Below are positions 11,723-28,758 of a DNA stretch of 64,000 nucleotides, one piece after another. The translations under genes were made by a program, and so were the position numbers. The stretch is from the IMG/VR virus record IMGVR_UViG_3300028992_000036, one strand, 5' to 3'. The notes under the pieces are model-generated. The model saw nothing but the letters and a program-made list of their open reading frames with translations, was not told where the DNA came from and made no database searches. Source of the stretch: a virus. Taxonomy: Duplodnaviria; Heunggongvirae; Uroviricota; Caudoviricetes. Position 1 is the stretch's first letter. Every line of letters starts with the position of its first letter.

Positions 11723-12613
11723 TTATGCCGGTAAAGCAATTTCTAACGGTTTATCCAAAGGTTGTTTGTCGAATGCCAGCAGTGGCAGCGTGTCAGGCAG
11801 TCGACGACCAAAGTCAGGGTTTCGATACACCCCATACAACGGAGACGTAAAGCTCAGGTTGTGAATGTCCTTGAGCAACTTCACAATGCTGGCCTCGTCC
11901 ACCAGACTGTCGGCAATGTCCTGAATCGTCGTGCCACGATTCCGCCCAGCTTTTGCCAGGGAACTGTTCTTGTGGTAGTCCGCCACCAGATCACGCAGTG
12001 CACGGCGACGACGAGACTCGCTCATTGCGAACAACTCTTTGACGATCGCCTCGTTATCACCCGGGTCGGAACGGAAATGGCGCTGGAATACACGCAGTGC
12101 ACTTTCATAGCTCTTCGGTCGCTCAGGGCGGATGAACTTAAACCCTGCTTTCATGGCGAAGGGATTGTATTTGCTCATCGAGGACTGGATCTCAATGATT
12201 GGCCGGTCATGCATCCTGCTAACCAGGTTAATCATTCGATAAGAGACGCCTACGCCACGATACTGAGTATCCACAACTGAGCGACTGATCACCGCAAAGT
12301 TGTTATTCACGTACCGACCCCAGTACTGGTTAGCCACGGTGGTATTAGTGGTTGGTTTCAACTTAGGAAACATGCGGTGGCGAGGTGCCAACAGTAGTTT
12401 CGGGTAAGCCATAACCACGACGCCCACCAGACGGTCATCAAGTTCGCAGCGATAGTAAGTTGGCGCGAAAGGTTTGCCGTCTGTTTTGTAGTGAAGCGAC
12501 TTAAGAGCGTGCCAGTCCTCTACAGTTCCCTTTGTAACAGTCATTCGCTCCAGAAAGTCCAGATGACGCGGAAACTCTTCAGGGCGGTAGCGTTTAATGA
12601 TGATGTCCGTCAT
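11723..12613 (-). CDS. hypothetical protein, coupled to upstream ATPase
   Basis: 296-aa ORF; start overlaps upstream stop (ATGA). Confidence 0.4.
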   Translation of the reverse strand: MTDIIIKRYRPEEFPRHLDFLERMTVTKGTVEDWHALKSLHYKTDGKPFAPTYYRCELDDRLVGVVVMAYPKLLLAPRHRMFPKLKPTTNTTVANQYWGRYVNNNFAVISRSVVDTQYRGVGVSYRMINLVSRMHDRPIIEIQSSMSKYNPFAMKAGFKFIRPERPKSYESALRVFQRHFRSDPGDNEAIVKELFAMSESRRRRALRDLVADYHKNSSLAKAGRNRGTTIQDIADSLVDEASIVKLLKDIHNLSFTSPLYGVYRNPDFGRRLPDTLPLLAFDKQPLDKPLEIALPA

Positions 12614-13275
12614 GAATGGACCTCATCGTGACTACCATTGTGATATTCCACCTTCACGCGTTCTTTGTAGTGCTTGGTGATCTGCATATCCGGGCGCAGC
12701 GCGTTCTTCAGGTCTTCGTGAGTCGTCGCCACCATTACCGTCGCACCAACCTTTCGAGCGGCACGCTGGAGGTTAGACGCCACAACCTGAGCGGTTACAC
12801 GGTCGAGAACAGCGCCGAACTCGTCAGCAGCCCACACTTTAGCGCCTGACTCAATCAGTTTGGCAATCTTGAGACGATATTTCTGGCCGTCTGACATTTC
12901 AGAAGGCTTGCGAACAAACAGATATGCATCGTTCAGACCAGCCATAGATAACAACCCAAGCGCATCACTGGTCGTTTTGCCCAACTGATCGATGACGTTA
13001 ACCTCATTATCGAAGGTAAAATCATCGATGGAGGCTACAGACAGCCCTTCATCCTTCATCTGTCGTTGCAACTCGCGCAGCACAACGGATTTGCCGGAAC
13101 CGGATTGGCCGGTGATGTACACCACATCGCCCTGCTTCACTTCCAGCTCCAGATTGTCGTAAAGCGTCCACTCTTTTTCGTCCAGGCCAAGCCCGAACGA
13201 CTCAGCGATTTCCAACGTGCGCGTGGTTTTATTTACGCGTGTCTGAAACGATACGTTGATGATGTATTTGCTCAT
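12610..13275 (-). CDS. stand-alone ABC-type ATPase
   Basis: Walker A GQSGSGKS, signature-like SDGQKYRL, Walker B VWAADEFG, H-loop TTHED; no transmembrane domain. Confidence 0.6.
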   Translation of the reverse strand: MSKYIINVSFQTRVNKTTRTLEIAESFGLGLDEKEWTLYDNLELEVKQGDVVYITGQSGSGKSVVLRELQRQMKDEGLSVASIDDFTFDNEVNVIDQLGKTTSDALGLLSMAGLNDAYLFVRKPSEMSDGQKYRLKIAKLIESGAKVWAADEFGAVLDRVTAQVVASNLQRAARKVGATVMVATTHEDLKNALRPDMQITKHYKERVKVEYHNGSHDEVHS

Positions 13276-13940
13276 GCAGCCATCTCCCCGGAAGAGATCT
13301 TCTCCGCATATGCCACAAATGCGTCTACCCCGCTTTCTCCCGTCATTTCTTCCATGTGGGCAAGCAAATCACCAACAACAATGGCAGAGCCAGCAGGGAG
13401 CGTTTTAAAGCCCAATACGTCGACAACACGTACTTCTTCCGCTGCAACTTCACGACTGATCTCGGTGTGTTCATCCTTCTGTCGTTTAGTTTCTTCGCCA
13501 AGATCGATAACTAGCGAGTCGGTGTCCATTTCTTCTGTCATACTGCCAACGAGAACATTCAACTCACGCTCTTCAAAGCCGAAAACCTCGATATCGTCCA
13601 GAACAAGCGACTCAAGCTCTTTCTGTAGCTTAATTGCATCGTAATCAATGCTGGCAAGTCGGTTATCTTCAAGGCGCTTCGCACGAACCTCGTCATCACT
13701 GAGATCATCGCGAACAATAACCGGTACGCGCTCAAGTCCAGCAAAAATTGCAGCCTCACGGCGGCCGTGGCCAGTAATAATTACGTCGTTCTTATCGACC
13801 GTAATTGGCTGGTCAAATCCGCGCTTTTTAATGGCTGCGGCTAGATCTCGGATCTGCTGTTCATCATGCTTTTTGGCATTCATCTCATAGGGAATAAGAT
13901 CTGCCGGGTCGCGATATACGATTTCAAACTTTTTGGTCAT
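13272..13940 (-). CDS. ParB-like nuclease domain protein
   Basis: ParB/Srx N-terminal motif ITGHGRREAA; AAGGAG RBS before ATG 13940; coupled to neighbours. Confidence 0.6.
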   Translation of the reverse strand: MTKKFEIVYRDPADLIPYEMNAKKHDEQQIRDLAAAIKKRGFDQPITVDKNDVIITGHGRREAAIFAGLERVPVIVRDDLSDDEVRAKRLEDNRLASIDYDAIKLQKELESLVLDDIEVFGFEERELNVLVGSMTEEMDTDSLVIDLGEETKRQKDEHTEISREVAAEEVRVVDVLGFKTLPAGSAIVVGDLLAHMEEMTGESGVDAFVAYAEKISSGEMAA

Positions 13941-14620
13941 TACATACGCTCCTTGTAGTAGTCGACCAGCCACACCAGAGCCTCACCAGCGTTCTCCATT
14001 TCATTACCGGTGTTAATAGCCTGCTCTTTGATGATGTTTTTTATGGTTTCTGCAACACGATCTGACGCATCGAAAGTTACTTTGAAGCGCATGGTCTGAT
14101 GTTCCGCACCCACACGTTCGGTTTTCTCTCGTTTGTCGGTATCGACAGGCTCATCACTACCACGAGACAACGCCTCCAGTGCTTCAAGGTCGATTGCCGC
14201 CTCTTTTGCTAAAACCATCGAGATTTCGTCGTCATACGGGGCGATTTCAGACAGTTGATAGTCAAGTTCTGACTGAATTTCTTCAATGAAGCGTTGCAAT
14301 GCGATTTGGTCGTCTTCACCGTATCGCTCGTTGTCCACCAGTGACATCTGTTTAGCTACGACATCGCTAATTTTGCCCACAGAAAGCACCGGAACCGTTG
14401 AAATTCCTTGCTCAATAGCAGCACGCCAGCGATGTTCGCCGCCGAGGATTTCAAAAAATCCATCTTCAAGTTCACGAGCCAAAATTGGCTTAAAAAAGCC
14501 CAATTTTTCGATAGAACCTTTCAGTTTTTCAAAATTCTGCGCACCAACCGAATTGGTGTTCCAGGTATTCGGGCGAAGGTTGGCAACATCAACCTGCAAA
14601 ATCGTGATTTTTACATCCAT
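13940..14620 (-). CDS. ParB-like nuclease domain protein
   Basis: Motif LGGEHRWRAA; start ambiguous (ATG 14620 or GTG 14638). Confidence 0.6.
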   Translation of the reverse strand: MDVKITILQVDVANLRPNTWNTNSVGAQNFEKLKGSIEKLGFFKPILARELEDGFFEILGGEHRWRAAIEQGISTVPVLSVGKISDVVAKQMSLVDNERYGEDDQIALQRFIEEIQSELDYQLSEIAPYDDEISMVLAKEAAIDLEALEALSRGSDEPVDTDKREKTERVGAEHQTMRFKVTFDASDRVAETIKNIIKEQAINTGNEMENAGEALVWLVDYYKERM

Positions 14621-14702
14621 TTTATTGCTACAATCCACTAAGTAATCACTTACTTATTATAATAGCCAAATAACATACAAAAGGCACTAAGGAAAGAGGT
14701 TT

Positions 14703-16262
14703 ATGACTGTTCGGATTGTATCTAACGCAGTAAATGCGCTTATTTCTGGCGCAGATGACAAGGTAAAGCAACTGGTGCAGCAAATGTTGAGCTACGAAGT
14801 CGAGACTGGCGACTGGAAGGGCACAAGCACGATGTTCAACTGGAGTAAAAACTCGTTCCCTGCTGGCTTTGCCAAGCCTGTAGCGGCGAACTTGAACAAG
14901 GCGGGCATCAAATGTGTTCATATCCGCAAAGACAAAGCCCCGGCGCTTGGTAAACCAAATCCGGCGGTTAACCCATTCCCATACAATCCTGATTATGCGT
15001 ATCAGGATCAGACTGTGGAAACACTGGTTCGAGAGGGAATGATGATTGCGCAGATCGCTACTGGTGGCGGGAAATCTAACGTTGCCTGCAAAGCAGCTGC
15101 ACGTATCGGTCGAATGACATTATTTTTAACAACCCGCTCTGTTCTGATGTTTCAAATGGCCGAAAACTTCCAGAGATCCATCGACTACCGCGCCGAAAAT
15201 GGCGAACCGTGGTTAAAAGACCAAAAGGTTGGAGTCATTGGCTCGGGTGAGTTCCAGGTATCACGACATATCAACGTCGCTACAGTTCAAACTCTTGCAA
15301 GTTTCCTCGAAGAACCACCACGCGATGCAACACCAGATAAGAAAAGCTACCACCTCAAACGTCGGGAGTTGGTGAAACGCTTCCTTTCAAGTGTCTCTCT
15401 TCTTATTCTGGAAGAGGCGCATGAGTCTTCAGGCTCAAATTTCTATGACATCGCCAGATTATGTGTGAACGCAGACTATCGTCTGGCGCTTACAGCCACG
15501 CCGTTCATGAAGGATTCGACGGAAGCCAACATGCGCCTGATGGCGGTGGCCGGGCGAATTGAAATTAAAGTCACAGAAAAGTACCTGATTGATCGAGGCA
15601 TTCTGGCAAAGCCGTACTTCCTTTATCATAAAGTTGCCTACAAGCCAGACGAGGCCAGAATCAAGGCCGAACTTGCCAACAAACACCTCAATTTTAGAGT
15701 TGGTATGAGCACCGCCTACCAAAAGGCTTATCAGTTGGGGATCGTGTATAATTTGGGACGTAACGAGGCCATTGTTCGCGAAGCATTGCTCTATAAGCAA
15801 CATTCTCTCAATTGTATGACTCTGGTTCGTCTTAAACGCCACGGGCAAATCCTGATGGAAATGATGAAAGAGTCCGGCCTTAGAGTTGACTTCATCTATG
15901 GGGAATCTAACCAGGCGACAAGGCAAGCAAAGCTGAACAGTTTAGCGTCTGGAGAAATAGATGTTTTAATAGGCTCGACTATTCTGGATGTCGGTGTTGA
16001 TGTGCCAAGCGTTGGTGCGGTCATTCTTGCTGGTGGTGGGAAAGCAGAAGTTGAAATGAGGCAGCGTGTCGGTCGTGGCTTACGAGCCAAAAAAAATCAG
16101 GCAAACGTGTGTTTTATCACTGATTTCATTGACATTAGCAACAAATACCTGTTGTCTCACTCTTATGAGCGAAAACACATCATCGACACCACACCTGGCT
16201 TTGCAGAAGGTGTATTGCCTATTGATGGAGCATTCGATTTTGGAGTTCTGAAACGAGATTAG
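14703..16262 (+). CDS. SF2 DNA helicase (ResIII/DEAH-like)
   Basis: Motif I ATGGGKS, motif II LILEEAH, C-terminal helicase motifs; AAGGAAAGAGG RBS. Confidence 0.7.
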   Translation: MTVRIVSNAVNALISGADDKVKQLVQQMLSYEVETGDWKGTSTMFNWSKNSFPAGFAKPVAANLNKAGIKCVHIRKDKAPALGKPNPAVNPFPYNPDYAYQDQTVETLVREGMMIAQIATGGGKSNVACKAAARIGRMTLFLTTRSVLMFQMAENFQRSIDYRAENGEPWLKDQKVGVIGSGEFQVSRHINVATVQTLASFLEEPPRDATPDKKSYHLKRRELVKRFLSSVSLLILEEAHESSGSNFYDIARLCVNADYRLALTATPFMKDSTEANMRLMAVAGRIEIKVTEKYLIDRGILAKPYFLYHKVAYKPDEARIKAELANKHLNFRVGMSTAYQKAYQLGIVYNLGRNEAIVREALLYKQHSLNCMTLVRLKRHGQILMEMMKESGLRVDFIYGESNQATRQAKLNSLASGEIDVLIGSTILDVGVDVPSVGAVILAGGGKAEVEMRQRVGRGLRAKKNQANVCFITDFIDISNKYLLSHSYERKHIIDTTPGFAEGVLPIDGAFDFGVLKRD

Positions 16263-16264
16263 TT

Positions 16265-16543
16265 ATGAGCGAAAAGAAAACAACTTATTGTCAGGTAGCA
16301 TTGTCTGATAAGGCCAATGACAAACTTGGAAAGTTTCAAGTGAAACTAAAAGAAAAAAATATCAAAATGTCTAAGGCTGAAGTCATAAATACCATTCTGG
16401 AACAATTGACAATGGCCGACTTTGACAAGGTTATATCTTCTGTCGGGGCTTCCGCTAAGACTCGTGAGAAAATCATGCGTATCTATGAGAACTCTAATAT
16501 GACAAAGGAAGATCTCGAAACGCTATTAAGCAGATTAAAATAA
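16265..16543 (+). CDS. small putative DNA-binding/regulatory protein
   Basis: 92 aa; begins 3 nt after helicase stop. Confidence 0.35.
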   Translation: MSEKKTTYCQVALSDKANDKLGKFQVKLKEKNIKMSKAEVINTILEQLTMADFDKVISSVGASAKTREKIMRIYENSNMTKEDLETLLSRLK

Positions 16544-16569
16544 TCACGCTATCAATTAGGGAGACAAAG

Positions 16570-17034
16570 ATGAAGTCTCCCATACTGTTCACTTTCTGTT
16601 CTAAAACTATCATGAAATACTCGCTTCTCCCTCTACTAACGTTACCAGTGTTGATGCTTACCGCGTGCCAATCACGCCCAATATCAATCCATGACGCCAA
16701 ACCAGCACCGCAGGCCAAAGTGTTCAAGTATCAAAGCGCAGCGCCAGCTACGTTGGTGGTAATGAGAGACACAGGTTTTGTAGGAGCTGGATGTGATGCT
16801 TCCATTTTCATCAACGGCGAAACTGTCGCAAAACTGGCTACAGGCGAAAAAGCGACTTTCCATTTAAATGCCGGAGAATTAATTGTGGGTGCATCTCTTG
16901 AAGGTGCAGGTTTATGTGCTCTAAACCCCGCTCGTCAAGAGCGAGAAACGACTCTGAAGAATGGAGACACAAAAGCGTTCAGGGTGTTCACCAGCAATTC
17001 TGGTGACATCGACATTCTGCCAACAACTCTGTGA
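16570..17034 (+). CDS. lipoprotein, putative
   Basis: Signal with lipobox LTAC (..LPVLMLTACQ); GGGAGA RBS; alternative start at 16612. Confidence 0.5.
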   Translation: MKSPILFTFCSKTIMKYSLLPLLTLPVLMLTACQSRPISIHDAKPAPQAKVFKYQSAAPATLVVMRDTGFVGAGCDASIFINGETVAKLATGEKATFHLNAGELIVGASLEGAGLCALNPARQERETTLKNGDTKAFRVFTSNSGDIDILPTTL

Positions 17035-17038
17035 TGAC

Positions 17039-17563
17039 ATGACAACCAAAGATATTACCTACGGTATCCAAGCTGAACTCTGGCCGCGAGATTACACTAA
17101 CGTTGAAAAACTACTGATGTTCTGGCGCAGAGAACAAATTCCTGTAAGGGTCACTCTCGAAGATGGCCAGGCGTTTTGCATGTACGTTTATGGCCTCATG
17201 CCATCTCGTAACAAAGTTGACCTTTGCCCAGCCCCTTTTGACAAAGAAAATCGTATAAGGCTCCCACTTGAACGCATTAGTACAATTGAATCAGGTGTGG
17301 TTGACAGTATCGCTCACGATTTCAAAGGTCGACTAACAGTTCACCCTGATTATGTCGATAATCGGCCATCACGCCGCGATTTTTTTGCAATTTGCAACCA
17401 AGCCTACAAAGCAAACAAATCTATAAGGGTGTACATGGCGGATGGCCGTGAAATTGAGGGGGTGTCAGCAGGCGCAGATGCTTGTCAGGTTACACTACGT
17501 GTCGAGAACGGTAGAAAAATAGTTGTTTTGTTCGATTGGGTTGAACGAATTTTGCCTTTTTGA
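17039..17563 (+). CDS. hypothetical protein
   Basis: 174-aa ORF from ATG 17039, directly after the lipoprotein stop. Confidence 0.4.
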   Translation: MTTKDITYGIQAELWPRDYTNVEKLLMFWRREQIPVRVTLEDGQAFCMYVYGLMPSRNKVDLCPAPFDKENRIRLPLERISTIESGVVDSIAHDFKGRLTVHPDYVDNRPSRRDFFAICNQAYKANKSIRVYMADGREIEGVSAGADACQVTLRVENGRKIVVLFDWVERILPF

Positions 17564-17566
17564 GTT

Positions 17567-17875
17567 ATGAAATCGATATTGTTACCACCATTATTTTTAC
17601 TTTGCTCAGTTACGGCAAATGCAATGGACTATAAGCCTGTCATTCAGTCGCTGATGAATGACGTGTGCTCAACGTCTCAGAATGTATCAGTTTGCATGTA
17701 TCAATTTTCGGCAGCCGTAAAAGCAGGAAAAGCGATAGGTGAGAATGTGGAACTGTGTAAGAAAGTGGCAAATGAAGAAAGGGCAATGTTGGATTGCGAA
17801 TCTAGCGAGTCATCGGCACAGTTCGTTGATGCGCTATTTGACACCAATCGTAAGGCTGTAGAGTCTGTTCAATAA
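17567..17875 (+). CDS. small secreted protein, putative
   Basis: N-terminal signal peptide MKSILLPPLFLLCSVTANA; 102 aa. Confidence 0.4.
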   Translation: MKSILLPPLFLLCSVTANAMDYKPVIQSLMNDVCSTSQNVSVCMYQFSAAVKAGKAIGENVELCKKVANEERAMLDCESSESSAQFVDALFDTNRKAVESVQ

Positions 17876-18064
17876 ATCTATAAGGTTAATAACCGGCTAA
17901 GTCCGGCTATTATTTTTCACATCACTTCTTTATATCTACAAATCAAATAACCTAAATATATATAAGGTCTAAAGCCGCAATCGATTATTTATTTAGGGAA
18001 CACCTTCGACGATCTCGCTTTTATTTCTAGGACTTTCATCCCTGCAAAAAATTTTAAAAAAACA

Positions 18065-18092
18065 CTTGCAATCTATTTTCGCGTATCGATAA
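18065..18092 (+). promoter_or_regulatory. sigma70-type promoter candidate for the AT-rich moron
   Basis: TTGCAA - 16 nt - GATAAT, ~70 nt upstream of ATG 18159. Confidence 0.4.
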
Positions 18093-18158
18093 TTGAACTC
18101 GTCGAAAGCGAAGACGCTAACGACAATAAATTTTAAATTTACATAAGGAAAAATTATC

Positions 18159-18809
18159 ATGGCTAACATTATCATTTCTAAAAAATCCATCATTGAAGCT
18201 GCTTCCATTGTATCCGATGAACTGCGCGAAAAAGCAGATCTGGCAACTCAAACATATAACGAACATTATAAAAATGGTACGCACACTAAAGCAGACAAAG
18301 CAAATATGCAAGCTGCGACCACTAAACTTGCTTACTTCATCAACAACGTCGTAAACGCAGTAGAAGACGAAAAATTATGCTCTGTTTTCTACTATGCGAT
18401 TAAAGCAAGCAAACAAGCGCCAGAAGTATTTTTCCGTGATGCAATGACTAATAGTTATTCTCTGGAAAAACTGGTTTATCTGGTTAAATCAATTAAATCT
18501 GGTAAATGCGTTTATTCCATCGCTGATATGTCAGGATCTCGTGTATTCGCTTTAATCGATATGATTAACGACGAGATCGACACGTTCACCAATGGCGCTG
18601 TTTTCGATTTAATGAATGAAGCTAAAAAAGCGTGCGAAATTAAATTGGACGCTGGCTATACTCAAGCCAACCAGTTGATCAATCTTTGCGAACGTCTTGG
18701 ACTTGTTGAGAAAGTCAAAGGAATGGGAAGCGCAAAAGCTGGTACACAGCAATATCGCTTTATCAAGAATGATTTCTACAATTATTTAGCTGATGCTTTT
18801 AAAGCGTAA
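18159..18809 (+). CDS. hypothetical protein in AT-rich moron
   Basis: 216 aa; AAGGAAAAA RBS; markedly lower GC than flanks; followed by a hairpin at 18819-18839. Confidence 0.5.
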   Translation: MANIIISKKSIIEAASIVSDELREKADLATQTYNEHYKNGTHTKADKANMQAATTKLAYFINNVVNAVEDEKLCSVFYYAIKASKQAPEVFFRDAMTNSYSLEKLVYLVKSIKSGKCVYSIADMSGSRVFALIDMINDEIDTFTNGAVFDLMNEAKKACEIKLDAGYTQANQLINLCERLGLVEKVKGMGSAKAGTQQYRFIKNDFYNYLADAFKA

Positions 18810-18859
18810 TTAATGGAATCAAGCGCCCACTATGGGCGCTTTAAAGGAGCTTTAAAAAA

Positions 18860-19063
18860 ATGGTCAGCTATGACAAGATCCGCGCAAAGTATCGCGCAAA
18901 GTATCGCGCTTATAAACTGGAATTAATCGATGATTTGATCGCGCAACGCGACCAATTAAATTTTACGTTTTCTGATTTGCTTAACAGCAAGCGAGATTGC
19001 AAGCGCAAACGTGAATACTTACGTTTAAGCGCATTAATCGGAAAACTTCAAAATTCTATTTAA
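18860..19063 (+). CDS. small basic hypothetical protein
   Basis: 67 aa; AAAGGAG RBS; contains a tandem 12-nt repeat encoding AKYRAKYRA. Confidence 0.4.
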   Translation: MVSYDKIRAKYRAKYRAYKLELIDDLIAQRDQLNFTFSDLLNSKRDCKRKREYLRLSALIGKLQNSI

Positions 19064-19084
19064 TTTTTTTTAAGGAGCTTAATC

Positions 19085-19315
19085 ATGTTTGTTCTTATCG
19101 CTGGCGTTAACGTCCATAATGAATATTATGTTAATCGCATCGCTGGGATCGCTGGTTACGCTGGGCGCGCAGTCGAGCTTATAGATGAAACGACGCGCAA
19201 AATTGACTTATTGAGCGACCAGGAGCGAAAAAAAGCAGACGTGAACGACGCTGATATATTTTTAATGTTAAAAGCGTTTGTAGAAATGGGATTTAAAATC
19301 AGTTTACACAAATAA
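19085..19315 (+). CDS. small hypothetical protein
   Basis: 76 aa; AAGGAG RBS 7 nt upstream. Confidence 0.4.
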   Translation: MFVLIAGVNVHNEYYVNRIAGIAGYAGRAVELIDETTRKIDLLSDQERKKADVNDADIFLMLKAFVEMGFKISLHK

Positions 19316-19320
19316 AATCG

Positions 19321-19346
19321 AGCGCCCACTATGGGCGCTTTTTTTC
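19321..19346 (+). terminator. Rho-independent terminator
   Basis: AGCGCCCACTATGGGCGCT hairpin + TTTTTTT; same hairpin (no T-run) at 18819-18839. Confidence 0.6.
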
Positions 19347-26567: not shown

Positions 26568-28601
26568 TTACTTAACCTGGTGGCCAGGTTTAGCACCAGC
26601 ATCCGGGCTTAACAGGAAGATATCTTTCCCGCCGGGGCCAGCAGCCATCACCATGCCTTCAGAGATACCGAAGCGCATTTTACGTGGTGCCAGGTTAGCC
26701 ACCATAATGGTGTGACGACCAATCAGTGCCTGTGGATCTGGATAAGCGGAACGGATGCCTGAGAAGACATTACGCTTTTCACCACCGAGATCCAGCGTCA
26801 GGCGAAGCAGTTTGTCAGAACCTTCTACAAACTCTGCGTTTTCAATCAGCGCCACGCGCAGGTCAACTTTGGCGAAGTCGTCAAAGGTGATAGTTTCCTG
26901 AATCGGGTCGTCAGCCAGTGGGCCAGTTACCGGTGCGGCTGTGGCTTTCACTTCTTCTTTGGATGCTTCCACCAGTGCTTCAACCTGCTTCATATCGATG
27001 CGGTTATACAGTGCCTTGAACGGATTCACTTTATGGCCCAGCAGCGGTTGCTGGATACCATCCCAGGTCAGTTCTGTATTCAGGAATGCTTCTGCACGTT
27101 CAGTCAGTTTCGGCAGTACCGGTTTCAGGTACGTCATCAGCACGCGGAACAGGTTAATGCCCATAGAGCAAATCGCCTGCAGATCGGCATCGCGTCCTTC
27201 CTGCTTTGCCACCACCCACGGAGCCTGTTCATCAACATAGCGGTTAGCCAGGTCAGCCAGTGCCATGATTTCACGGATAGCTTTGCCAAATTCGCGGCTT
27301 TCCCATGCTTCGCCAATCACTTCAGCGGCATCAGTAAAGGTTTTGTACAGTTGCGGGTCAGCCAGTTCGCTTGCCAGCACGCCGTCAAAACGCTTGTTGA
27401 TAAAGCCTGCATTACGGGAGGCCAGGTTAACCACTTTGTTAACGATATCGGCATTCACACGCTGAACGAAATCTTCCAGGTTGAGATCGATATCATCAAT
27501 GCGCGAAGAGAGTTTCGCAGTGTAGTAGTAACGCAGGCTGTCGGCGTCAAAATGATTCAGCCAGGTGCTGGCTTTAATAAAGGTGCCGCGAGACTTGGAC
27601 ATCTTCGCGCCGTTCACCGTCACATAGCCGTGAACAAACAGGTTGGTCGGCTTGCGGAAGTTGCTGCCTTCCAGCATGGCAGGCCAGAACAGGCTGTGGA
27701 AGTAAACGATATCTTTGCCGATGAAGTGGTACAGCTCGGCGGTGGAGTCTTTCTTCCAGTATTCGTCGAAGCTGGTAGTGTCGCCGCGTTTGTCGCACAG
27801 ATTCTTGAAGGAACCCATGTAGCCAATCGGCGCGTCCAGCCAGACGTAGAAGTATTTGCCCGGTGCGTTCGGAATTTCAAAACCGAAGTAAGGTGCGTCA
27901 CGGGAGATATCCCACTGTTGCAGGCCAGATTCAAACCACTCCTGCATTTTGTTTGCCACCTGCTCCTGCAACGCACCGCTGCGGGTCCATGCCTGCAACA
28001 TTTCGCTGAAAGAAGGCAGATCAAAGAAGAAGTGTTCGGAATCACGCATTACCGGTGTAGCGCCAGAAACCACTGATTTCGGCTCGATCAGTTCCGTCGG
28101 GCTGTATGTCGCGCCGCAGACTTCACAGTTATCGCCGTATTGATCCGGCGCTTTACATTTCGGGCATGTGCCTTTTACAAAACGGTCCGGCAGGAACATG
28201 CCTTTTTCCGGGTCGTACAGCTGAGAGATGGTGCGGTTTTTAATAAAACCGTTCTCTTTCAGGCGAGTATAGATAAGCTCGGACAACTGACGGTTCTCTT
28301 CGCTGTGCGTCGAGTGATAGTTGTCATAGCTGATGTTAAAGCCTGCGAAATCAGTCTGATGTTCCTGACTCATTTCGCCAATCATCTGTTCCGGTGTGAT
28401 ACCAAGCTGCTGTGCTTTCAGCATGATTGGCGTACCGTGGGCATCGTCGGCACAGATGAAATTAACCTCGTGGCCGCGCATTCGCTGGTAACGAACCCAG
28501 ACATCAGCCTGGATGTGCTCCAGCATATGGCCGAGGTGGATTGAGCCGTTAGCGTACGGCAGCGCGCACGTCACCAGAATTTTCTTCGCGACTTGGGTCA
28601 T
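26568..28601 (-). CDS. metG: methionyl-tRNA synthetase
   Basis: Protein from [29 protein letters not shown]... with class I HIGH motif (HLGH) and KMSKS; 677 aa; track ORF over-extended by 43 codons. Confidence 0.95.
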
Positions 28602-28758
28602 AGTAGGCATTACTTCTTTGTAGTGAAAAGGGGCTTGATAGTAACAAAATGGCCTTATGTCTGCCATGTGATAACAGCATTTCTCATAAATGATTAAATG
28701 TCGTAGCTGGAGTACACTACAAGGCGACAATTGCGCAAATTAAAATAAAGGAGACGGG

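What the first reader, a model, noticed from the sequence alone, without database searches (positions are those of the whole stretch)
16265..17875. Lipoprotein and secreted-protein cluster downstream of the helicase
A 92-aa putative regulator, a lipobox protein, a 174-aa unknown and a 102-aa signal-peptide protein follow the helicase on the plus strand. Phage-encoded lipoproteins in such positions often mediate superinfection exclusion by blocking receptors.
Basis: inference. Interest (0 to 1): 0.45.

Follow-up and report, generated by a model that had tools for sequence, protein, structure and literature searches.

The report
Orphan FljA regulator plus envelope cassettes
The four small genes behind the helicase of this E. 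coli phage-plasmid are two conserved core genes, one of them a relative of the Salmonella flagellin-silencing protein FljA, interleaved with two swappable genes for exported cell-envelope proteins whose role (possibly exclusion of other phages) remains untested.

Summary
The four ORFs are real and tightly packed behind the helicase. The window is an SSU5/pHCM2/pMT1-type E. coli phage-plasmid, and the queried 4.4-kb stretch (14500-18900) is 100% identical to known plasmids.

The cluster is not one functional unit:
- **Core genes.** orf92 and the 174-aa "unknown" occur in about 820-830 plasmids each.
- **Accessory cassettes.** The lipoprotein occurs in 421 plasmids and the 102-aa secreted protein in 259.
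- **It is an orphan FljA.** The window has no flagellin gene. The gene is kept under purifying selection in plasmids of Klebsiella and Y. pestis, which lack flagella. Its conserved target is therefore probably not only fliC.
- **The lipoprotein** (lipobox LTAC) sits in a hot spot that held at least one exported protein in 75 of 78 related loci, from several families and in both orientations.

Superinfection exclusion is plausible for the envelope cassettes but has no direct support. They match no known exclusion protein, and SSU5 uses LPS core as its receptor. The "regulator" label for orf92 is unsupported. Interest is moderate.

The parts
14703..16262 (+). DEAD/ResIII-type helicase, the first gene of the operon (context for the finding)
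   Evidence: Pfam ResIII, DEAD and Helicase_C hits; phrog_16 DNA helicase. Annotated as DEAD/DEAH box helicase in the plasmid CP057685, which is identical over 14500-18900.
16265..16543 (+). orf92, a core gene of unknown function. Its start lies 2 nt after the helicase stop.
   Evidence: phrog_1466, E 5e-46. tblastn finds it in 822 plasmids, including Klebsiella and Y. pestis. No Pfam, NCBIfam or PDB match, and hhalign to ribbon-helix-helix repressors gave probability 0.8%.
16559..16581 (+). Hairpin GGGAGAC-(9 nt)-GTCTCCC between orf92 and the lipoprotein gene, possibly a partial terminator or processing site
   Evidence: Predicted free energy -12.3 kcal/mol. SSU5 (11 bp plus a U run, z -3.2) and pMT1 (8 bp, z -2.9) have hairpins of different sequence at the same position. 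The alternative ATG at 16570 lies in the loop.
16612..17034 (+). Accessory lipoprotein of 140 aa. Lipobox LTAC, with Cys19 as the acylated N-terminus. Gln at +2 predicts outer-membrane sorting. The mature domain is all-beta, with two further conserved Cys.
   Evidence: phrog_890 'lipoprotein', E 9e-52. Lipobox and hydropathy. Cys19, Cys61 and Cys102 conserved. Found in 421 plasmids. The AF2 model is all-beta but poor (pLDDT 59). Weak DUF2846 hit at 18 bits, below the 34.3 cut-off.
17039..17563 (+). FljA-family protein of 174 aa: a tandem Sm/Hfq-like, predicted RNA-binding translational repressor. It is a core gene. Its start lies 4 nt after the lipoprotein stop and has no Shine-Dalgarno sequence, so translational coupling is inferred.
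17567..17875 (+). orf102, an accessory small periplasmic protein. It has a 19-aa signal peptide (ANA|MD) and an 83-aa mature part with four Cys.
   Evidence: phrog_9536, E 6e-55, which matches only the mature part. The leader varies while the mature part is conserved. Found in 259 plasmids. It is a clean insertion relative to SSU5, pMT1 and Cyrano. No PDB or Pfam match.
17888..17917 (+). Terminator-like hairpin (AATAACCGG-CTAAGT-CCGGCTATT followed by a T run) that closes the operon
   Evidence: Conserved in all six family members aligned. Fold z-score -2.1.

Best explanation
The segment is the distal part of the helicase operon of an SSU5/pHCM2/pMT1-type phage-plasmid. It is a mosaic of two conserved core genes and two swappable cassettes.

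Core genes. orf92 has unknown function. The 174-aa gene encodes an orphan FljA-family protein built from two Sm/Hfq-like domains. By analogy with its characterised relatives (Salmonella FljA and pBSSB1 FljA-z66), it most likely binds the 5' leader of an mRNA and blocks its translation.

Likely target. The gene has no partner flagellin gene. It is also kept under purifying selection in plasmids of Klebsiella and Y. pestis, which have no flagella. I therefore infer that its conserved target is a transcript of the element itself, or another non-flagellar RNA. Repression of host fliC mRNA is a possible extra activity in flagellated hosts such as E. coli.

Accessory cassettes. One is a lipoprotein predicted to be processed by signal peptidase II and sorted to the outer membrane. 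The other is a small disulfide-bonded periplasmic protein. Both occupy a recombination hot spot that almost always carries some exported protein, so they most likely modify or protect the host envelope. Superinfection exclusion is the leading but unproven possibility.

Shown here: gene reality, family membership, predicted fold, export signals, the core/accessory split, and the hot-spot structure. Inferred: RNA binding, the identity of the target, the time of expression, and any exclusion phenotype.
For: - **Element identity.** 100% identity to pRHB17-C18_2 over 14500-18900 and 79% to SSU5.
- **FljA membership.** PF03614 at 282 bits over the full profile; 36% identity, E 1e-37, to a protein that sources name FljA.
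- **Family size.** Only 26 clusters at 50% identity among 1.84 billion proteins. Among 50,697 phage records, full-length copies occur only in SSU5-like phages.
- **Core status.** 831 plasmids carry it, including 341 Klebsiella and 62 Yersinia, all listed examples being Y. pestis. The order helicase-orf92-[slot]-FljA-phrog_1513 is kept even in a group with 33-37% identical FljA.
- **Selection.** dN/dS is about 0.09-0.12 across hosts and 0.25 between two Klebsiella alleles.
- **Orphan status.** tblastn of FliC against the 64-kb window gives a best E of 0.2.
- **Relatives act on fliC after transcription, and across species.** See PMC2652032.
- **Cassette behaviour.** Counts; orf102 indel and Cyrano mosaic; 75 of 78 loci carry an exported protein in the slot, and the cassette genes fall into three exported-protein PHROG groups, on either strand.
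- **The lipoprotein can stand alone.** A 61% identical copy sits in a degraded integrase islet on a chromosome.
Against: - No expression data, RNA target or phenotype is available.
- The only activity ever shown for this family is fliC repression, so a purely flagellar role, exerted only in flagellated hosts, cannot be excluded.
- No fliC-leader-like sequence was found in the window, but no alternative operator was identified either.
- The Hfq likeness rests on a predicted model, and the Pfam Hfq score (19.6 bits) is below its 27-bit cut-off.
- The lipoprotein model is poor (pLDDT 59), so its fold assignment is unreliable.
- The 78-locus survey took the 80 loci most similar to the query and was not dereplicated, and export was judged by simple sequence rules.
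- That Klebsiella and Y. pestis are non-flagellate, and that hosts such as S. Typhi CT18 and E. coli LF82 are motile, comes from general knowledge and was not tested here.
Confidence: 0.65

Rival explanations
1. One reading: the four genes form a superinfection-exclusion cluster in which the lipoprotein, helped by the secreted protein, blocks the phage receptor or DNA entry in the way T5 Llp or phi80/N15 Cor block FhuA.
For: A lipobox and a signal peptide are present. Both genes are accessory and lie in a hot spot that nearly always carries an exported protein, which is typical of exclusion or moron cargo.
Against: - Two of the four genes are core cytoplasmic genes.
- No match to any exclusion or defence family in Pfam, PHROGs or PADLOC.
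- SSU5's receptor is LPS core oligosaccharide, not a protein (PMC4138488).
- The same lipoprotein family also occurs alone on a chromosome and on unrelated plasmids of Xanthomonas, Vibrio and Cupriavidus.
Confidence: 0.25
2. Flagellin shut-off model: the FljA-like protein works exactly like Salmonella FljA. It binds the host fliC mRNA leader and stops flagellin synthesis, either in lysogens (giving protection from flagellotropic phages, evasion of TLR5, or energy saving) or during lytic growth. Together with the envelope proteins it would form a surface-remodelling module.
For: Full-length FljA family membership. FljA-z66 on a plasmid made a motile E. coli non-motile and acts after transcription (PMC2652032). 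Most hosts of the family (E. coli, Salmonella, Enterobacter, Citrobacter, Cronobacter) are flagellated.
Against: - The gene is intact and under purifying selection in 341 Klebsiella and 62 Y. pestis plasmids, whose hosts make no flagella.
- No partner flagellin gene is present.
- Identity to FljA is only 36%.
- From general knowledge, carriers such as S. Typhi CT18 (pHCM2) and E. coli LF82 (Cyrano) are motile, so repression cannot be constitutive in lysogens.
- No paper in the library links SSU5-like elements to motility.
Confidence: 0.25
3. Lectin model: the lipoprotein is a LecB/PA-IIL-like carbohydrate-binding beta-sandwich that binds LPS core or another envelope glycan. This would mask the LPS-core receptor used by SSU5-type phages.
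Against: - The model is low-confidence (pLDDT 59, pTM 0.51).
- A profile search of PDB sequences found nothing.
- The search of viral structures found nothing at E <= 0.001.
- The Ca2+- and sugar-binding residues were not examined.
- A lipoprotein in the inner leaflet of the outer membrane would not face the LPS core.
Confidence: 0.08
4. The ORFs are chance reading frames or decaying remnants with no function.
For: None beyond the absence of functional annotation for three of the four.
Against: Each is conserved in 259-831 plasmids. pN is far below pS for all four. All four match PHROG families over their full length or full mature part.
Confidence: 0.01

Closest known systems
Salmonella enterica FljA (fljBA operon, phase-1 flagellin repressor; Pfam PF03614)
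   Same: Same family, matched over the full length (282 bits). 36% identity. Conserved motifs ITYG..E.WPRDY and PSRRDFF.IC...DWV.RI. Similar size (174 against 179 aa).
   Different: It is not linked to a flagellin gene or to an invertase switch. It is a core gene of a phage-plasmid family, present also in hosts without flagella. Its target RNA is unknown. It forms a separate deep branch of the family.
FljA-z66 of the S. Typhi linear plasmid pBSSB1 and the fljA-like genes of E. coli flagellin islands
   Same: An FljA homologue carried on a mobile element, shown to act after transcription and across species on fliC (PMC2652032).
   Different: Those genes sit directly downstream of a flagellin gene and serve antigen switching. 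Here there is no flagellin gene in 64 kb.
Hfq / Sm-like RNA-binding proteins
   Different: There are two domains in one chain instead of a single-domain hexamer. The sequence score is below the Hfq family cut-off. Oligomeric state and RNA-binding faces are unknown.
Phage exclusion lipoproteins (T5 Llp; Cor of phi80, N15 and HK022) and lambda-type morons such as Bor
   Same: A small phage-borne lipoprotein predicted to go to the outer membrane, accessory, and located in a variable slot.
   Different: No sequence relationship was detected with any annotated exclusion family. The known receptor of SSU5 is LPS core rather than FhuA or another protein. No phenotype is known.
T4 Spackle (small periplasmic exclusion protein). 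This resemblance is recalled from memory and is only a lead.
   Same: orf102 is likewise a protein of about 100 aa with a cleavable signal peptide and a small Cys-containing mature part.
   Different: A profile search of all PDB sequences found no similarity at E <= 10.

Membership tests
FljA / Flag1_repress (PF03614) | Full-length match to the family profile above the curated cut-off | tested here: met
   E 1.5e-84, 282.4 bits against a cut-off of 24; residues 5-171 on profile positions 1-170 of 170.
FljA / Flag1_repress (PF03614) | Direct similarity to the experimentally studied Salmonella FljA | tested here: met
   36% identity over 171 residues, E 1e-37, to P0082, which NCBI names 'phase 1 flagellin gene repressor FljA'.
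FljA / Flag1_repress (PF03614) | Encoded next to, and co-transcribed with, an alternative flagellin gene (fljB type) | tested here: not met
   tblastn of E. coli FliC against the whole window gives a best E of 0.2. The neighbours are a lipoprotein gene and orf102.
FljA / Flag1_repress (PF03614) | Binds the fliC mRNA 5' leader and blocks its translation | not testable with these tools
   This needs RNA-binding and reporter assays. No fliC-leader-like sequence occurs in the window, which says nothing about binding to the host mRNA.
Sm/Hfq-like fold | N-terminal helix followed by a five-stranded bent sheet, with structural similarity to Hfq or Sm proteins | tested here: met
Sm/Hfq-like fold | Sequence match to the Hfq family above its cut-off | tested here: not met
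   Pfam Hfq 19.6 bits against a cut-off of 27; NCBIfam Hfq 13 bits against 61.7.
Bacterial lipoprotein (Lgt/LspA substrate) | Positively charged N-region, hydrophobic core, lipobox [LVI][ASTVI][GAS]C, and an invariant Cys | tested here: met
   MK-YSLLPLLTLPVLM-LTAC; Kyte-Doolittle 2.53; Cys19 invariant in 12 homologues. Acylation itself cannot be tested here.
Known phage superinfection-exclusion and defence proteins (Llp, Cor, Sie and other annotated families) | Sequence membership in an annotated exclusion or defence family | tested here: not met
   PHROGs returns only phrog_890 ('lipoprotein', category other), phrog_9536 and phrog_27673 (both unknown function). No PADLOC hit for the lipoprotein, the FljA-like protein or orf102. 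Pfam returns only a sub-threshold DUF2846 hit.
Known phage superinfection-exclusion and defence proteins (Llp, Cor, Sie and other annotated families) | Reduces adsorption or DNA entry of the same or related phages | not testable with these tools
   This needs plating and adsorption assays. Context: the SSU5 receptor is LPS core oligosaccharide (PMC4138488).
DUF2846 (PF11008) | Profile match above the gathering score | tested here: not met
   18.1 bits against a cut-off of 34.3, covering only residues 45-92. One homologue gives 13.9 bits.
PA-IIL/LecB-type lectin fold (lipoprotein) | Structural match, plus Ca2+- and sugar-binding residues | tested here: inconclusive
   hhalign probability 0.8%, E 0.07. 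No Pfam, NCBIfam or PDB hit.
Sec-type signal peptide (orf102) | N-region Lys, hydrophobic core, small residues at -3 and -1, and a leader less conserved than the mature part | tested here: met
   MKSILLPPLFLLCSVTANA|MD; Kyte-Doolittle 2.57. Ala at -1 is invariant, the leader varies, and the mature N-terminus is conserved. Judged by sequence rules only, because no SignalP was available.

The most novel reading that the evidence does not exclude
The FljA family is at root a phage-plasmid protein: a tandem-Sm (Hfq-like) translational regulator that controls an RNA of the SSU5-type element itself. On this reading, the Salmonella and E. coli phase-variation repressor FljA is a domesticated offshoot of it, just as the Hin invertase derives from phage invertases. 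The phage-plasmid protein would then have a non-flagellar RNA target, and in flagellated hosts it might also silence flagellin on infection or induction.
Probability: 0.3. Interest if true: 0.65.

Novelty: new variant of a known kind. Interest (0 to 1): 0.4.

Why it matters
FljA is a textbook component of Salmonella flagellar phase variation, yet its fold and evolutionary origin are little discussed.

Three results here bear on that:
- The family is very small.
- By count of carriers in plasmid and phage collections, it sits mostly in SSU5/pHCM2/pMT1-type phage-plasmids, including Y. pestis pMT1/pFra and hundreds of Klebsiella plasmids.
- It is predicted to be a tandem Hfq-like protein.

Together these give a concrete hypothesis that can be tested at the bench: a phage-borne RNA-binding translational regulator with a target beyond fliC.

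The adjacent slot nearly always carries some exported protein, drawn from several families. That makes it a defined place to look for exclusion or envelope-modifying functions in a clinically widespread plasmid family. The element is present in 164 of 5,426 complete E. coli genomes, always on a plasmid.

The sequence itself is already in databases and is partly annotated. SSU5 gp121 is labelled 'putative repressor of phase 1 flagellin'. The advance is therefore one of interpretation rather than discovery.

Tried and rejected
- **fliC-leader-like operator in the window.** blastn-short with the E. coli K-12 fliC promoter and leader gave a best score of 24.3 bits, no better than shuffled queries. 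Rejected as uninformative.
- **Rfam scan of the whole window.** No family reached its gathering score.
- **orf92 as a ribbon-helix-helix regulator.** The strand-helix-helix pattern looked suggestive by eye, but hhalign gave 0.8% probability and a PDB profile search found nothing significant.
- **Lipoprotein fold.**
  - The AF2 model from 12 close homologues was poor (pLDDT 59).
  - Foldseek against viral structures gave nothing at E <= 0.001.
  - The afdb50 library was unavailable.
  - A PDB sequence-profile search found nothing.
- **orf102.** No Pfam, NCBIfam, PADLOC or PDB match.
- **The 154-aa lipoprotein ORF starting at 16570.** It seemed to have a good Shine-Dalgarno sequence. It was rejected because that 'SD' and the ATG are the stem and loop of a positionally conserved hairpin, and homologues start at the MK(H/Y) methionine.
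- **Literature.** No paper in the library mentions FljA together with SSU5, phage-plasmid or pMT1, and no paper retrieved links pHCM2's FljA-like gene, or SSU5-like elements, to flagellin or motility. The moron table for phage Cyrano is an image and could not be read.
- **Coordinate mapping.** Mapping window coordinates onto CP057685 works around the locus but is about 1.3 kb off at metG. The window is therefore not collinear with that plasmid throughout.
Full report
**What the window is.** The region 14500-18900 is 100% identical to E. coli plasmid pRHB17-C18_2 and 98.5% identical to 'Escherichia phage CMS-2020a'. It is 79% identical to Salmonella phage SSU5. Related plasmids number 770 by megablast and are mostly non-mobilisable replicons of about 105-115 kb from Klebsiella, Escherichia, Enterobacter, Yersinia and Salmonella. 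The window therefore comes from an SSU5/pHCM2/pMT1-type phage-plasmid. Annotation of the identical plasmid shows the locus lying divergently from a ParB-ParB-ABC ATPase block, followed by terminase, portal and capsid genes.

**Checking the observation.** Four + strand ORFs follow the helicase (14703-16262):

| Gene | Coordinates | Length |
|---|---|---|
| orf92 | 16265-16543 | 92 aa |
| lipoprotein | 16612-17034 | 140 aa |
| FljA-like | 17039-17563 | 174 aa |
| orf102 | 17567-17875 | 102 aa |

- The spacers are 2, 68, 4 and 3 nt.
- A conserved terminator-like hairpin (17888-17917) closes the set.
- All four genes show pN far below pS against relatives, and each matches a PHROG over its full length or its full mature part. 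They are real genes.
- The lipobox is LTAC at residues 16-19, the Cys is invariant in homologues, and the residue at +2 is Gln.
- The longer 154-aa reading from ATG 16570 is unlikely. That ATG sits in the loop of a hairpin (16559-16581). SSU5 and pMT1 have hairpins of different sequence at the same position, and homologues start at the MK(H/Y) methionine.
- orf102 has a classical cleavable leader (…TANA|MD). The leader diverges between homologues while the mature part, with its Cys residues, is conserved.

**The '174-aa unknown' is an FljA homologue.**
- It matches Pfam PF03614 ('Repressor of phase-1 flagellin') end to end at E 1.5e-84.
- It is 36% identical (E 1e-37) to a 179-aa protein that NCBI names FljA of Salmonella.
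- The family is very small. A full HMMER pass over 1.84 billion representative proteins found 26 clusters, and only a handful of these are full-length.
- Among 50,697 phage records, full-length copies occur only in SSU5-like phages.
- GenBank already labels the SSU5 copy 'putative repressor of phase 1 flagellin', and one source names a Typhi protein on a 106.7-kb, pHCM2-sized contig 'repressor of fliC'. The homology is therefore known at the annotation level. I found no paper that discusses it.

**Predicted fold.**
- An AlphaFold2 model built on 24 family members is confident (pLDDT 87.3, pTM 0.83). It consists of two modules, each with one helix followed by five strands.
- Pfam also gives a sub-threshold Hfq hit at residues 120-162.
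- The two halves align in register by hhalign (E 6e-4).
- A tandem Sm-like architecture fits the published post-transcriptional action of FljA and FljA-z66 on fliC mRNA (PMC2652032).
- I found no paper stating this fold, although that search was a loose two-of-three-term query of which only the top 12 papers were seen. Structure databases may already show it.

**Core genes and accessory genes.** tblastn against 72,556 plasmids gave the following counts.

| Gene | Plasmid records | Status |
|---|---|---|
| FljA-like | 831 (341 Klebsiella, 229 Escherichia, 92 Enterobacter, 62 Yersinia, 60 Salmonella) | core |
| orf92 | 822 | core |
| lipoprotein | 421 | accessory |
| orf102 | 259 | accessory |

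- All the Yersinia records listed in the outputs are Y. pestis pMT1/pFra-type plasmids.
- The order ParB-ParB | helicase-orf92-[slot]-FljA-[orf102 present or absent]-phrog_1513 holds in Klebsiella plasmids and in Y. pestis pFra. It also holds in a divergent Klebsiella group whose FljA-like protein is only 33-37% identical.
- dN/dS for the FljA-like gene is about 0.09-0.12 between hosts and 0.25 between two Klebsiella alleles.
- Klebsiella and Y. pestis make no flagella (general knowledge). No flagellin gene is present in the 64-kb window. The conserved function is therefore unlikely to be fliC repression alone.
- From general knowledge, S. Typhi CT18 (carrying pHCM2) and E. coli LF82 (carrying Cyrano) are motile. 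This argues against constitutive flagellin shut-off in lysogens.
- I could not identify the alternative target. The window has no fliC-leader-like sequence and no Rfam match.

**The accessory cassettes.**
- Relative to SSU5, pMT1 and Cyrano, orf102 is a clean insertion of about 311 bp between the FljA stop and the terminator.
- Phage Cyrano is 98% identical to the window up to 16518 and 97% identical after 19068. Between these points the slot is replaced and the FljA allele is only 78% identical, so this is a recombination hot spot.
- I surveyed 78 IMG/VR loci that carry both orf92 and FljA. The slot held at least one predicted exported protein in 75 of them:
  - the window's lipoprotein family (phrog_890), on the + strand in 32 loci;
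  - the same family at 27% identity on the opposite strand in 10 loci;
  - a 266-aa lipoprotein in 8 loci and a 118-aa secreted protein in 9 loci, both related to phrog_2320;
  - a secreted protein of about 197 aa (phrog_18942) in 16 loci;
  - an empty slot in 3 loci.
- orf102 was present in 22 of the 78 loci.
- This sample is biased towards relatives of the query and was not dereplicated.
- None of these proteins matches an annotated exclusion or defence family.
- A 61% identical copy of the lipoprotein stands alone in a decayed integrase islet on an enterobacterial chromosome, so the protein works independently of FljA.

**Interpretation.**
The hot-spot behaviour of these genes is what one expects of moron or exclusion cargo.
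- The cluster is nevertheless heterogeneous. Its most informative member is a core, cytoplasmic, FljA-family protein predicted to bind RNA.
- Receptor blocking of the Llp/Cor type lacks an obvious protein receptor, because SSU5 uses LPS core (PMC4138488).
- My probabilities are:
  - about 0.8 that the 174-aa protein is a post-transcriptional regulator;
  - about 0.4 that host fliC mRNA is among its targets in flagellated hosts;
  - about 0.45 that its conserved target is a transcript of the element itself;

**Novelty and score.**
- The sequence is already in databases and is partly annotated. The element is common: 164 of 5,426 complete E. coli genomes carry it, always on a plasmid, and 84 of them have this exact four-gene layout.
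- What appears to be new is interpretive: an orphan FljA as a core phage-plasmid gene maintained in non-flagellate hosts, its tandem Hfq-like model, and the exported-protein hot spot beside it.
- I rate it a new variant of a known kind, with interest 0.4.

Noticed in passing
window 17876-18158: The non-coding stretch between orf102 and the phrog_1513 gene contains blocks that are invariant in all six family members aligned. These include a Klebsiella group whose neighbouring FljA-like and orf92 proteins are only 33-37% identical. The blocks are: the terminator hairpin; TATATAAGG; TTTATTTAGGGAACACCTTCGA (unique in the window); TTTATTTCTAAGACTTT; a sigma70-like promoter TTGCAA-16-GATAAT at 18066-18093; and CGAAAG in the predicted 5' leader. 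This is a candidate operator or regulatory region, possibly a target of orf92 or of the FljA-like protein.
   Followed up: partly
window 16559-16581; L002 3551-3572; L006 3021-3040: A hairpin occupies the same position between orf92 and the lipoprotein gene in the window, in SSU5 and in pMT1, but with a different sequence in each. The SSU5 version has an 11-bp stem followed by a U run. It may partly terminate transcription after the core helicase-orf92 unit.
   Followed up: partly
window 26568-28730 (- strand): The phage-plasmid carries a full-length methionine-tRNA ligase gene (metG; NF001100, 1019 bits). The coding part is residues 47-720 of the listed ORF.
   Followed up: partly
window 18812-18842 and 19311-19341: A 31-nt direct repeat (90% identical) contains the terminator hairpin AGCGCCCACTATGGGCGCT. 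It lies after the phrog_1513 gene and again after the small genes downstream. The same element occurs in relatives.
   Followed up: no
L001 (phage Cyrano) against window 16518-19068: Cyrano and the window are 97-98% identical on both flanks. Between them the slot content differs entirely and the FljA alleles are only 78% identical, so a recombination exchange covers slot plus FljA. Cyrano's slot lipoprotein has Asp at +2, which predicts retention in the inner membrane. The window's has Gln at +2.
   Followed up: partly
L041, L046, L076, L081 and similar loci (slot between orf92 and FljA): A further slot cassette encodes a protein of about 197 aa with a signal peptide (…FSANA|LSD), assigned to phrog_18942 of unknown function. 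It is often accompanied by cytoplasmic proteins of 179-199 aa (phrog_13473) and 162 aa.
   Followed up: partly
L002 4113-4559 (SSU5 gp121): The SSU5 RefSeq annotation starts the FljA-like gene at an internal Met, giving 148 aa. The full 174-aa frame begins 4 nt after the lipoprotein stop, as it does in the window.
   Followed up: yes
window 11723-14638 (- strand): Two tandem ParB-like genes, an ABC-type ATPase gene and a 296-aa ORF lie divergently from the helicase operon, only 64 bp away. The structural genes lie beyond them. This is an unusual partition-like block whose role was not examined.
   Followed up: no
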